Source of the DNA: Collinsella sp.
GTDB taxonomy: Bacteria > Actinomycetota > Coriobacteriia > Coriobacteriales > Coriobacteriaceae
Length of the DNA stretch: 64,000 nt
Direction: 5' to 3'
NCBI GenBank assembly: GCA_018378775.1
Contig: JAGZWV010000003.1
Coordinates: 26,898 to 90,897 of the forward strand
The position numbers were made by a program, and so were the translations under genes. Each line of letters opens with the position of its first letter. Within the stretch, counting starts at the first letter, position 1. This document shows, piece by piece, positions 9,901 through 44,297 of this stretch. The notes under the pieces were generated by a model that had not been told where the DNA came from, did not search any database, and saw nothing but the letters and a program-made list of their open reading frames with translations.

Positions 9901-10010
9901 TAGTCATTGGGGACGTTCTTAAACGACTAGTCATCGGGGACGTTCTTGTTTGACTAGTCATTTAAGAACGTCCCCGATGACTAGTTCCGTTTGCGGGGGA
10001 GGCGTGGGAC
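9901..10010. promoter_or_regulatory. composite palindromic cis-element: three copies of 20-bp unit TAGTCATYGGGGACGTTCTT (two direct, one inverted) plus GGCGTG-GACAAT box
   Basis: Units at 9901-9920(+), 9928-9947(+), 9965-9984(-); the second and third form a perfect 20-bp inverted repeat. Followed by GGGGAGGCGTGGGACAAT ~45 bp before the K+ channel ATG. Near-identical element at 23866-23945. Confidence 0.5.
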
Positions 10011-15483: not shown

Positions 15484-15864
15484 CTACTGCATGGTTTCGG
15501 GGGCTACCAGGTCGAGCATCTCGTGCAGTTTGTCGCGCGTGACGCCCAGGGTTTCGGCTTGGCTCGCCGCTTTCGCAAGCAACTCTTCGATATGGCAGAG
15601 CTGACTTTCGCGTAAGAGTTCTTGGTTGCCCTCAGCGACAAAGCACCCCTTGCCCTGCACGGTGCAGATAAACCCGAGCTGCTCCAAGTCGGCGTAGGCG
15701 CGCTTGGTGGTGATAACGCTCACACTCAGGTCGCTGGCAAGCGCACGGATACTGGGGAGTTTGGCTCCCGCAGCGAGTGCGCCCGATAGGATCTGAGCTT
15801 TGACTTGCGAGGCTATCTGCTCGTAGATGGGCTTGTCGCTCGAATTGGATAGGATGATGTCCAC
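15484..15864 (-). CDS. GntR-family (YtrA-subfamily) transcriptional regulator
   Basis: 126 aa; PIYEQIASQVKAQILSGALAAGAKLPSIRALASDLSVSVITTKRAYADLEQLG is a canonical GntR wHTH; short C-terminus typical of YtrA. Confidence 0.8.
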   Translation of the reverse strand: MDIILSNSSDKPIYEQIASQVKAQILSGALAAGAKLPSIRALASDLSVSVITTKRAYADLEQLGFICTVQGKGCFVAEGNQELLRESQLCHIEELLAKAASQAETLGVTRDKLHEMLDLVAPETMQ

Positions 15865-15975
15865 AGCGGCTCCTTAGCTGTTGGGCTACACGTGTATATA
15901 ACCGGTAAGCACAGTATATATACACTATGCACAGTTACGCAAGAGGTAAATAGGGATTGTCCGCTCGTTCATTCA

Positions 15976-16273
15976 TCTCAATCTGTAACATCTGGAACCG
16001 ATATGGACGGCTACCTGTTACAGATTGAGATTTTGCTGGCGGGCCCCACCTGGTTGTCTCAATCTGTAACAACTGGAGAAGATTTTGGCTGCTAGATGTT
16101 ATAGATCGAGACATTGGCCGCCCGTCTATCCTTATATCTCAATCTGTAACAGATGGACCCGTTTTGAGTGGCTAGATGTTACAGATCGAGATCTTTCTGG
16201 GACGCCCACCTGTTTGTCTAAATCTGTAACAGGTAGAGGTTCAAAAACCGTCTAGATGTTACAGATCGAGACA
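15976..16273. repeat. array of 8 copies of ~20-bp motif TCTC(A/G)ATCTGTAACA.. in alternating orientation forming four ~80-bp palindromic units
   Basis: Copies at 15976(+), 16011(-), 16058(+), 16094(-), 16134(+), 16168(-), 16216(+), 16251(-). 15-bp arms TCTCAATCTGTAACA/TGTTACAGATTGAGA with 20-25-bp loops; units 1 and 3 and units 2 and 4 are similar (~160-bp higher-order period). Region ~45% GC versus ~63% flanks. Confidence 0.7.
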
Positions 16274-16416
16274 AGCTGCTGCAGAGTGCCGCCGCCGATC
16301 GGCAACCAAAGCCCCAACTGATGAATTTGTCCTGATAGGCGCCCTAGAGCGAGATTTCGCGGCTACAATAGTGCGGTTACAACGACGTAATGCACTCAAT
16401 GCAAGAAAGGATCCGC

Positions 16417-18030
<1,614 letters not shown>

Positions 18031-23801: not shown

Positions 23802-23865
23802 ACGCTCTCAATCTCTAACATGCTATTTCGTGCTTATTTGCGCAGACGATGATACTCCTAATCGA

Positions 23866-23945
23866 CTAGTCATTGGGGACGTTCTAAAACGATTAGTCAT
23901 TCAAGAACGTCTCCAATGACTAGGTGGGGAAGGCGTGCGACAATG
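23866..23945. promoter_or_regulatory. second copy of the TAGTCATTGGGGACGTTCT palindromic element with GGCGTG-GACAAT box
   Basis: TAGTCATTGGGGACGTTCT-aaaacgat-TAGTCATTCAAGAACGTCTCCAATGACTA then GGGAAGGCGTGCGACAAT, 37 bp before the RlmA-like ATG and divergent from the MATE gene. Confidence 0.5.
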
Positions 23946-44136: not shown

Positions 44137-44275
44137 AAAAGGGGCGCTGTGCATAGACAGCGCCCCTGTAAAGGCGGCATGCTCCCTACGCCAGCATTAA
44201 CTGACAGGTTCAAAGGATTGGGCCCCATGCCCTCTCAGCCTTGTGGTTTGCACCGCCGGCACTCCCGCATCGAAT
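44137..44275 (-). ncRNA. TPP (thiamine pyrophosphate) riboswitch with terminator expression platform
   Basis: Minus-strand reading: GGGAGTGCCGG...GGCTGAGAGGG...CCTTTGAACCTGTCAGTTAATGCTGGCGTAGGGA (THI-box: CUGAGA + ACCUG-N-UAAUGC(C/U)AGCGUAGGGA) followed by terminator CAGGGGCGCTGTCTATGCACAGCGCCCCTTTT and the SD/GTG of thiM. Confidence 0.85.
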
Positions 44276-44297
44276 CTGTTGTTCCCTATACTAGCGC

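What the first reader, a model, noticed from the sequence alone, without database searches (positions are those of the whole stretch)
15976..16273. AT-rich array of eight alternating-orientation 20-bp motifs (four ~80-bp palindromic units) between the GntR-ABC operon and prfC; not CRISPR
Eight copies of TCTC(A/G)ATCTGTAACA... alternate + / - orientation with ~80-bp periodicity. Each +/- pair forms a perfect 15-bp-stem palindrome (TCTCAATCTGTAACA ... TGTTACAGATTGAGA) with a 20-25-bp loop. Units 1 and 3 and units 2 and 4 are more similar to each other, giving a ~160-bp higher-order repeat. GC drops to ~45% in a ~63% genome. No cas genes, and the repeats are inverted rather than direct, so it is not a CRISPR array. 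It could be an iteron/centromere-like protein-binding array (e.g. for the adjacent GntR/YtrA regulator), a tandem REP/BOX-like element, or a structured small-RNA locus.
Basis: seen in the sequence. Interest (0 to 1): 0.75.

Follow-up and report, generated by a model that had tools for sequence, protein, structure and literature searches.

The report
Collinsella interspersed palindromic tandem repeat
The array is one copy of a previously undescribed family of 80-bp hairpin-type repeats found between genes at dozens of conserved sites in gut Collinsella genomes; it resembles the REP/BIME/REPIN repeats of proteobacteria and has nothing specific to do with the neighbouring GntR regulator.

Summary
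Eight copies of TCTCRATCTGTAACA alternate in orientation at 15976-16271. They form four 55-bp palindromic units (15-nt arms, 25-nt core) with an 80/81-bp period.

It is not a local operator. The same unit occurs in at least 120 loci, essentially all from Collinsella genomes: 144 arrays of 1-8 units in at least 58 different gene contexts. Arrays sit at orthologous intergenic sites, and the unit number varies between species.

Arm positions are 93-100% conserved except positions 4 and 5. Core length is 25 nt in 369 of 372 units, and linkers are 24-26 nt. Solo arms are almost absent.

The variable stem positions show no compensatory change. Orientation shows no bias relative to transcription. There is no Rfam match, no target-site duplication, no cas gene and no array-flanked Y1 transposase. 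A separate conserved palindrome at 15892-15930 is the likelier YtrA operator.

Best reading: a Collinsella-specific REPIN/BIME-like (also MIRU-like) interspersed repeat. It is constrained at the DNA-sequence level, probably because an unidentified protein recognises it, and it grows and shrinks by unit-wise recombination. I found no description of it in the searchable literature. It is a new variant of a known kind, of moderate interest.

The parts
15976..16271 (.). Whole array: four tandem 80/81-bp units. Weak palindromic extension (YAWW / WWTR) reaches about 15972-16275.
   Evidence: nhmmer with a family HMM finds only these four units in the 64-kb window
15976..16030 (.). Unit 1: arms 15976-15990 (+) and 16016-16030 (-), 25-nt core 15991-16015. 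Perfect 16-bp inverted repeat.
   Evidence: I6; ssDNA MFE -15.5 kcal/mol, z -7.5
16031..16056 (.). Linker 1 (26 nt), T-type (TTTTG...GGTTG). Homologous to linker 3.
   Evidence: (D2)
16057..16111 (.). Unit 2: arms 16057-16071 (+) and 16097-16111 (-, 2 mismatches), core 16072-16096.
16112..16136 (.). Linker 2 (25 nt).
16137..16191 (.). Unit 3: arms 16137-16151 (+) and 16177-16191 (-, 1 mismatch), core 16152-16176.
   Evidence: (I8)
16192..16216 (.). Linker 3 (25 nt), T-type.
16217..16271 (.). Unit 4: arms 16217-16231 (+, 1 mismatch) and 16257-16271 (-, 1 mismatch). The core is in the opposite (A-tract) orientation and is itself nearly palindromic. This is the unit best conserved among the orthologous arrays.
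23806..23820 (+). Solo 14/15 match to the arm motif with no partner arm, 5 bp upstream of a MATE-like ORF start. Possible relic; membership uncertain.

Best explanation
The array is one locus of a Collinsella-specific family of interspersed intergenic palindromic repeats.

Anatomy. The unit is about 80 bp. Two inverted 15-nt arms (TCTCRATCTGTAACA, weakly extended by WWTR/YAWW) flank a 25-bp semi-conserved core (consensus G-CTAGA-CCCG-TTTTT-GGCG-CCTAGA, with a central T/A tract). A 25/26-bp polar linker follows.

Shown:
- Arrays of 1-8 units sit at orthologous intergenic sites.
- They gain and lose whole units, which fits unequal recombination or slippage between units.
- Only the arm sequence and the spacing are tightly kept, without base-pair compensation.

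Inferred:
- The arms are recognition sites for a trans-acting, sequence-specific DNA-binding or DNA-processing protein. It would read them as an obligate inverted pair at fixed distance.
- That protein either mobilised the element originally (REPIN-like) or uses it as a host nucleoprotein site (BIME-like).
- In this window the array is a passenger between the divergent ytrA and prfC promoters, not their operator.
For: Distribution:
All are Collinsella or unnamed gut bins, apart from one bin labelled Acutalibacteraceae.
- These loci hold 144 arrays and 372 units, with 1-8 units per array.
- All arrays are intergenic, in at least 58 contexts (26 tandem, 20 convergent, 12 divergent) beside unrelated housekeeping genes.
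- An 890-kb C. aerofaciens replicon holds 12 arrays and 29 units.

Unit-wise turnover:
- Unit number differs at the same site: 2, 2, 3, 4, 4, 4, 4 at ytrA-prfC.
- Length differences between orthologous arrays cluster at multiples of about 80 bp.

Constraint on sequence and geometry:
- Arm positions are 93-100% conserved except positions 4 and 5.
- The core is 25 nt in 369/372 units. Linkers are 25 nt (134), 26 nt (86) or 24 nt (7).
- Only 2 unpaired arms occur in about 0.9 Mb of loci.
- In orthologous comparisons arms diverge 3-4%, against 8-16% for cores and 8% for linkers. This holds after removing one possible ascertainment unit per locus.

No pairing constraint:
- Pair 5/51 counts are GC 94, AT 77, GT 76, AC 74. 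Pairs 4/52 and 15/41 show no double changes.
- Chimeric units fold as well as real ones.

Linkers are homologous between loci and are co-oriented with cores about 2.5:1, so the repeated entity is a polar 80-bp unit.

The architecture matches published descriptions of REPINs and their tandem clusters (PMC3116915) and of BIMEs (PMC2817692).
Against: - No cognate enzyme was found. tblastn finds no Y1 transposase next to arrays in about 1 Mb of loci. The 890-kb replicon holds only two identical canonical IS200/IS605 tnpA copies.
- REP hallmarks are missing: no GTAG/CGTC tag at the arm ends, and the stems are AT-rich rather than GC-rich.
- REPINs show compensatory changes. These units do not.
- No empty site or excision product was seen, so mobility is unproven.
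- Arm conservation is partly inflated by how the loci were ascertained.
- Protein binding is inferred only. No protein was identified.
Confidence: 0.6

Rival explanations
1. RNA-level element. The units are transcribed as parts of mRNAs and act as hairpins: bidirectional terminators, 3'-end stabilisers or RNase III sites, or as small RNAs.
For: - Each unit can fold into a stable hairpin (ssDNA MFE -6 to -16 kcal/mol, z -1.8 to -8.3).
- Arrays typically start 4-80 bp after a stop codon, and convergent contexts are somewhat enriched: 20/58 against about 21% expected.
- Some arrays lie between co-directional genes with no room for a promoter.
Against: - There are no compensatory changes at the variable stem positions, and G-U and A-C mismatches are equally frequent (76 vs 74).
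- Chimeras fold as well as real units.
- Orientation shows no bias relative to transcription.
- There is no U-tract terminator or promoter signal and no Rfam family.
- 12 of 58 contexts, including this window, are divergent promoter regions.
- A strictly fixed 25-nt loop is not expected for a simple hairpin.
Confidence: 0.17
2. Purely host-functional architectural array. It would be a phased binding platform for a chromosomal protein (insulator, gyrase/topoisomerase site or domain marker) and was never a mobile element.
For: - Arm sequence and spacing are conserved at orthologous sites over many species.
- The distribution in one replicon is regional: 12 arrays in 406-877 kb and none in 1-400 kb, P about 0.002-0.003.
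- There is no TSD and no transposase.
Against: - Unit number is freely variable (1-8).
- Placement next to unrelated genes looks opportunistic.
- No candidate protein was found.
- The regional bias rests on 12 arrays in one strain.
- This reading overlaps the best explanation rather than excluding it.
Confidence: 0.15
3. Operator or iteron array for the adjacent GntR/YtrA regulator of the ABC-transporter operon.
For: The array lies in the 553-bp divergent region next to a YtrA-type GntR gene.
Against: - The same arrays occur in at least 57 other contexts without a GntR gene.
- Array size varies from 2 to 4 units at this very site. In contrast, a separate palindrome (15892-15930, GTGTATATA/TATATACAC) close to the ytrA start is invariant in all 7 orthologous loci.
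- That palindrome resembles the AGTGTA...TACACT YtrA box that I recall for Bacillus subtilis. This is from memory and was not checked.
Confidence: 0.03
4. Classical MITE: a miniature derivative of a DDE-transposase insertion sequence, with the 15-19-nt arms as terminal inverted repeats.
For: It has terminal-inverted-repeat-like architecture, with outward flanks that often read TG...CA, and it is intergenic and dispersed.
Against: - No target-site duplication appears at any offset or length tested.
- The units form regular 80/81-bp tandem arrays with homologous linkers rather than independent insertions.
- No full-length element with these ends was seen in about 1.9 Mb of Collinsella DNA.
Confidence: 0.04
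5. CRISPR-like array or assembly artefact.
For: The region shows regular spacing of a repeated motif.
Against: - The motif copies are inverted, not direct.
- Linkers are homologous between loci, not unique.
- Adjacent genes are GntR, ABC transporter and prfC.
- The arrays are present in more than 100 independent assemblies, including isolates.
Confidence: 0.01

Closest known systems
REPINs and tandem REPIN clusters of Pseudomonas (Bertels & Rainey 2011, PMC3116915)
   Same: [quoted passage not shown]
- Doublets vastly outnumber singlets.
- Extragenic and dispersed.
- Ordered tandem clusters in which the flanking sequence is repeated as well.
   Different: - No RAYT (Y1 transposase) was found next to the arrays.
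- No compensatory changes.
- AT-rich arms.
- A much shorter unit (55 bp against about 90-130 bp).
- Tandem arrays are the rule here (126 of 144 loci have at least 2 units) rather than the exception.
- The host is an actinobacterium.
REP/BIME elements of enterobacteria, especially BIME-2 (PMC2817692, PMC3333891; gyrase cleavage at BIMEs, PMC6379681)
   Same: - Regularly spaced copies of one motif in alternating orientation, with two alternating kinds of linker.
- Variable number of repeats.
- Intergenic, often at gene 3' ends.
- Sequence-level rather than pairing-level conservation would suit protein (IHF, gyrase, Pol I) binding.
   Different: - Each REP is itself a GC-rich imperfect palindrome with a GTAG/CGTC tag. 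Here the 15-mer is not self-complementary, and the palindrome is formed only by two neighbouring copies.
- Binding of any protein is untested.
MIRU-VNTR loci of Mycobacterium (from my own knowledge: Supply et al. 1997, 2000; not checked here)
   Same: - An actinobacterial host.
- 40-100-bp units in tandem at dozens of conserved intergenic sites, with copy number varying between strains.
- Potential use for typing.
   Different: - MIRUs are not built from a long inverted repeat.
- MIRUs carry short ORFs that overlap neighbouring genes. The 80/81-bp period here is not a multiple of three, and arrays also occur between divergent genes.
Correia and other MITEs (PMC3184786)
   Same: A small intergenic element with terminal inverted repeats and an A/T-rich centre that could bend DNA.
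   Different: No target-site duplication, regular tandem organisation, and no parent IS.

Membership tests
REP/BIME | High-copy, extragenic, dispersed over the chromosome | tested here: met
   144 arrays in 120 loci, all intergenic, in at least 58 contexts. 12 arrays and 29 units in 890 kb of one strain. Copy number (about 30 arrays per genome by extrapolation) is lower than for typical REPs.
REP/BIME | Regularly spaced copies in alternating orientation (BIME definition, PMC2817692) | tested here: met
   Strict +/- alternation at 40/40-41 bp in all arrays.
REP/BIME | Each repeat is itself a 20-40-bp GC-rich imperfect palindrome | tested here: not met
   The 15-mer TCTCRATCTGTAACA is not self-complementary and is AT-rich.
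REP/BIME | GTAG or CGTC tetranucleotide tag at one end (PMC3733652) | tested here: not met
   Arms start with TCTC and end with ACA. An NTAG lies inside the core at positions 17-20 and is GTAG in only about a quarter of units.
REP/BIME | Bound by IHF, DNA gyrase or Pol I | not testable with these tools
   Needs ChIP, Topo-seq or EMSA.
REPIN-RAYT system | Two invariant ~16-nt sequences, inverted, around a less conserved spacer of conserved length; doublets outnumber singlets | tested here: met
   core length is 25 nt in 369/372 units, and there are 2 orphan arms against 372 pairs.
REPIN-RAYT system | Compensatory changes that keep the hairpin | tested here: not met
   Pair 5/51 counts are GC 94, AT 77, GT 76, AC 74. 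No double changes at 4/52 or 15/41. Chimeras fold as well as real units.
REPIN-RAYT system | A single-copy RAYT (Y1/HUH transposase) gene flanked by the repeats | tested here: inconclusive
   tblastn with an IS200 TnpA finds none next to arrays in about 1 Mb of loci. The 890-kb replicon holds only two identical canonical IS200/IS605 copies. No complete genome could be scanned, and BLAST may miss a distant RAYT.
MIRU-VNTR-like repeats | 40-100-bp units in tandem at many conserved intergenic loci, with copy-number polymorphism | tested here: met
   Examples of unit counts at one site across species: 2, 4, 2, 4, 3, 4, 4; 4, 8, 3; 5, 2, 1, 5.
MIRU-VNTR-like repeats | Units carry short ORFs in phase with or overlapping neighbouring genes (from my own knowledge) | tested here: not met
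   The 80/81-bp period is not a multiple of 3. Arrays also lie between divergent and convergent genes.
CRISPR | Direct repeats separated by unique spacers; cas genes nearby | tested here: not met
   The repeats are inverted. Linkers are homologous between loci. Neighbouring genes are GntR, ABC transporter and RF3.
MITE | Terminal inverted repeats plus target-site duplication | tested here: not met
   TIR-like arms are present, but there is no duplication at offsets 0-4 and lengths 2-5 beyond the shuffled control.
GntR/YtrA operator | Sites co-occur with the regulator gene or its regulon | tested here: not met
   The ytrA-prfC site is only one of at least 58 contexts. A separate invariant palindrome lies at the ytrA promoter.
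Structured RNA (any Rfam family) | Match to a covariance model; covariation; consistent strand | tested here: not met
   Only sub-threshold chance miRNA hits appear. The whole window has just a TPP riboswitch elsewhere. No covariation and no strand bias.

The most novel reading that the evidence does not exclude
The arrays are phased, high-affinity loading platforms for an as yet unknown Collinsella DNA-binding protein. That protein would organise or insulate a chromosomal domain. The inverted 15-mers at exactly 40-bp intervals would nucleate a regular nucleoprotein filament. Restriction of arrays to one (inferred origin-proximal) part of a replichore would mark a macrodomain, by analogy with matS/MatP or with parS clusters.
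Probability: 0.15. Interest if true: 0.8.

Novelty: new variant of a known kind. Interest (0 to 1): 0.45.

Why it matters
Collinsella is an abundant human gut genus that is hard to resolve taxonomically.

A genus-specific repeat at about 30 conserved loci with variable unit number offers three things:
- A ready-made VNTR typing system.
- A likely cause of contig breaks and false CRISPR calls in metagenome bins.
- An actinobacterial counterpart of REP/BIME/REPIN elements that apparently lacks a RAYT.

Identifying the protein that reads the 15-mer would show whether such repeats are domesticated architectural sites or relics of a new mobilisation mechanism.

Tried and rejected
- Rfam at permissive and gathering thresholds: nothing relevant.
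- Promoter and terminator scan: no sites.
- Covariation, three ways: pair tables, mutual information and chimeric-unit folding. A weak excess of pairing at core positions 23-24/34-35 is not unit-specific, so I rejected it as structural evidence.
- In-situ inversion of cores between orthologues: none found.
- Palindromy of linkers: absent; the linkers are polar.
- 10-bp A/T phasing as a sign of curvature: no clean periodicity.
- Target-site duplications: none.
- Empty sites: none. The one candidate (L093) is a truncated half unit.
- Phage and plasmid databases: no phage hits. The single 'plasmid' hit is a mislabelled chromosome piece.
- IMG/VR hits: these are host flanks next to a prophage integration site. 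The roughly 75-bp shared flank is probably a tRNA, which I did not verify.
- IS200/IS605 tnpA beside a truncated unit in L137: an incidental insertion, because the same truncation exists without the IS.
- The 356-aa gene bracketed by arrays, as a possible cognate enzyme:
  - It gives only a weak DUF559 hit.
  - Its close homologues are all from Collinsella.
  - However, it belongs to a widespread uncharacterised family with 4443 cluster representatives.
  - Distant members have no Pfam domains, there is no PDB relative, and the AF2 model is unusable at pLDDT 43.
  - I dropped this lead.
- Literature searches for a description of the repeat in Collinsella or Coriobacteriia: none found.

Full report
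**Observation**

The window holds eight copies of TCTCAATCTGTAACA with 0-2 mismatches at 15976-16271. They alternate strictly in orientation. The whole window has 9 matches with up to 3 mismatches against 0.52 expected, and no shuffle out of 100 reaches 9.

The copies pair into four 55-bp units, each with 15-nt arms and a 25-nt core. The units are separated by linkers of 26, 25 and 25 nt. Tandem Repeats Finder reports period 80, 3.2 copies and score 231.

Only unit 1 is a perfect palindrome. GC is 0.45-0.475 in the array against about 0.55-0.65 in the flanks. Linkers 1 and 3 are clearly homologous, which confirms the 160-bp higher-order repeat.

The array lies in the 553-bp divergent region between two genes:
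- a 126-aa YtrA-type GntR gene (15484-15864, minus strand), which is followed by an ABC ATPase gene and an ABC-2 permease gene;
- prfC (16417-18030, plus strand).

**It is a family, not a local site**

I scanned one genome per species for ATCTGTAACA-N18-35-TGTTACAGAT. Every hit had a 25-nt gap. All records are Collinsella or unnamed gut bins, apart from one bin labelled Acutalibacteraceae.

- These loci hold 144 arrays and 372 units. Eighteen arrays have 1 unit, 55 have 2, 46 have 3, 22 have 4, two have 5 and one has 8.
- Flank clustering and crude gene calls give at least 58 different gene contexts: 26 tandem, 20 convergent and 12 divergent.
- The neighbours are unrelated housekeeping genes. 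They include Nramp, gltB, clpB, tuf, dxs, glgP, coaX, LacI/PTS/GH1 clusters and P-type ATPases.
- Arrays usually begin 4-80 bp after a stop codon and usually stay about 90 bp or more from start codons.
- The same site carries different unit numbers in different species. For ytrA-prfC the counts are 2, 2, 3, 4, 4, 4, 4. Other sites give 4, 8, 3 or 5, 2, 1, 5.
- Length differences between orthologous arrays cluster at multiples of about 80 bp.

I read 890 kb of a C. aerofaciens replicon from PLSDB. It is labelled a plasmid but carries recA, ftsK, dnaE and ribosomal operons. It holds 12 arrays and 29 units. By RefSeq annotation, 5 are convergent, 5 tandem and 2 divergent. That density extrapolates to about 30 arrays per genome, which agrees with one array in this 64-kb window.

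**What is conserved**

- Arm positions are 93-100% conserved across 369 aligned units. The exceptions are position 4 (C 79%) and position 5 (A/G about 50:50).
- The palindrome extends weakly outwards by about 4 nt (YAWW).
- The core is 25 nt in 369/372 units. It has a symmetric skeleton (TAG ... central TTTT/AAAA ... CTA) over otherwise variable sequence.
- Linkers are 25 nt (134), 26 nt (86) or 24 nt (7), with one of 37 nt.
- Linkers are not palindromic but polar. They are homologous between unrelated loci: 840 pairs share at least 16 of 25 positions, against 18 pairs after shuffling. They are co-oriented with the cores about 2.5:1.

The repeated entity is therefore a polar ~80-bp unit whose arms evolve slowest.

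- Unpaired arms are nearly absent: 2 in about 0.9 Mb.
- In orthologous comparisons arms differ at 3.0% of positions, linkers at 8.0% and cores at 13.7%.
- After removing one possible ascertainment unit per locus, the figures are 4.1% for arms and 16.3% for cores. For unambiguously orthologous units they are 3.8% and 7.6%.

**DNA sequence or folded strand?**

Each unit can fold, but the variation does not behave like a stem.

- Pair 5/51 counts are GC 94, AT 77, GT 76 and AC 74, which is independence.
- Pairs 4/52 and 15/41 show single-sided changes only. G-T and A-C mismatches are equally common, so neither strand is favoured.
- Mutual information flags a small excess of pairing at core positions 23-24/34-35. 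Cores fold 1.3-2.4 kcal/mol better than shuffled cores.
- However, chimeras made from the left half of one unit and the right half of another fold at least as well as real units: -23.9 against -22.5 kcal/mol. The palindromy is therefore a property of the consensus, not maintained unit by unit.
- Core orientation is mixed within arrays and did not flip in situ between orthologues.
- Orientation shows no bias relative to flanking transcription.
- There are no promoter-like or terminator-like sites and no Rfam family.

Three features stand together: invariant arm sequence, fixed spacing despite substitution-rich cores, and an obligate inverted pair. I infer that a sequence-specific protein recognises the element. 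It would most simply be a symmetric binder on duplex DNA. Alternatively it could be an enzyme that reads a folded strand but tolerates mismatches.

**Mobility**

Direct evidence for mobility is lacking.

- There is no target-site duplication.
- There is no empty site. The one candidate is a truncated half unit.
- No Y1 transposase lies next to arrays in about 1 Mb of loci.
- The replicon holds only two identical canonical IS200/IS605 copies. One sits beside that truncated unit by coincidence.
- IMG/VR hits are host flanks next to a prophage integration site, probably a tRNA (unverified). Phage genomes have no match.

A 356-aa gene is bracketed by arrays at 10 and 22 bp in at least 9 genomes, so I examined it as a possible cognate enzyme.
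- It gives only a weak DUF559 hit.
- Its close homologues are all from Collinsella.
- It belongs to a widespread uncharacterised family with 4443 cluster representatives.
- That family has no Pfam model and no PDB relative, and the structure prediction failed at pLDDT 43.
- I do not count it as evidence.

**The neighbouring regulator**

Array size varies from 2 to 4 units at the ytrA-prfC site. The palindrome GTGTATATA-N16-TATATACAC at 15892-15925, which overlaps a second palindrome at 15909-15930, is unchanged in all seven orthologous loci and lies next to the ytrA start. It is the likelier YtrA operator. It resembles the AGTGTA...TACACT box that I recall for Bacillus subtilis YtrA, but I did not check that. 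The array is a passenger between the two promoters.

**Comparison with known systems**

The published description of REPINs matches this architecture closely. It lists two invariant 16-nt ends in inverted orientation, a less conserved spacer whose length matters, few singlets, and ordered tandem clusters that include the flanks (PMC3116915). BIMEs are defined as regularly spaced REPs in alternating orientation that serve as protein-binding sites (PMC2817692).

Several defining features fail or remain untested:
- The 15-mer is not itself a palindrome.
- There is no GTAG/CGTC tag (PMC3733652).
- There are no compensatory changes.
- No RAYT was found.

MIRU-VNTR loci share the actinobacterial host, unit size, multi-locus tandem organisation and copy-number variation. 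They do not share the inverted-repeat design or the coding phase. I therefore describe the element as working like a REPIN/BIME but do not file it as a member.

Full-text searches found no description of it in Collinsella or Coriobacteriia.

**Unexplained**

In the one replicon read in full, all 12 arrays lie between 406 and 877 kb and none in the first 400 kb. Given the number of intergenic regions of at least 100-150 bp, P is about 0.002-0.003.

GC skew is monotonic across the record and most genes are on the minus strand. I infer that the record is one replichore arm replicated from high to low coordinates. On that inference the arrays sit in the origin-proximal part. This rests on one strain and 12 arrays.

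**Verdict**

This is a real and reproducible feature. It is a new, apparently undescribed, genus-specific interspersed palindromic tandem repeat. It is not a CRISPR array, not a YtrA operator, and not supported as a structured RNA. The mechanism is only partly resolved:
- Unit-wise expansion and contraction and sequence-level constraint are shown.
- Protein recognition and the original mode of spread are inferred.

Noticed in passing
window 9901-9983 and 23866-23923: A second, unrelated repeat family. The 19-mer TAGTCATYGGGGACGTTCT occurs 5 times (0.03 expected): + + - at 9901, 9928 and 9965, and as a 27-nt-arm palindrome at 23866-23923 between a MATE-like gene and a methyltransferase-like ORF. 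It could be an operator or another dispersed repeat.
   Followed up: partly
window 15892-15930: A conserved palindrome (GTGTATATA ... TATATACAC, overlapping GCACAGTATATATA/TATATACACTATGC) lies next to the ytrA start. It is invariant in all seven orthologous loci. It is the likely YtrA operator and is distinct from the array.
   Followed up: partly
window 23806-23820: A solo 14/15 match to the array arm with no partner, 5 bp upstream of the MATE-like ORF start (23801, minus strand). Unpaired arms are otherwise almost absent from the family.
   Followed up: partly
window 44166-44276 (-): A TPP riboswitch at 55.9 bits, above the gathering threshold.
   Followed up: no
L137 21634-22460 (NZ_OY725717.1 about 422,700-423,500); L093 about 300-600: Downstream of the Nramp gene, one lineage keeps only a half unit (one arm plus core). 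In C. aerofaciens TSDC17.2-1.1 an IS200/IS605 element is inserted right after it, at a target ending AAATCA. L093 has the same half unit without the IS.
   Followed up: yes
L137 10941-12479; also L013, L019, L041, L054, L056, L072, L076, L088, L103, L155: A 356-374-aa hypothetical protein (weak DUF559-like C-terminus, member of a large uncharacterised family) is bracketed by arrays only about 10 and about 22 bp from its stop and start codons in every genome seen. The Nramp gene, an AAA ATPase gene and a 228-aa gene are bracketed in the same way.
   Followed up: yes
NZ_OY725717.1 (L137-L154), 1-890,000: This record is labelled 'plasmid 6' in PLSDB but is a chromosome arm (recA, ftsK, dnaE, rpoBC, ribosomal operons). 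Its 12 arrays all lie at 406-877 kb and none at 1-400 kb, P about 0.002-0.003.
   Followed up: partly
L121, L124, L127, L129, L131, L135 (IMG/VR contigs): Several predicted proviruses share an 800-bp host flank plus the array on one side and only about 75 bp on the other. This suggests a prophage integration site, probably a tRNA gene (unverified), directly beside one of the conserved arrays.
   Followed up: partly
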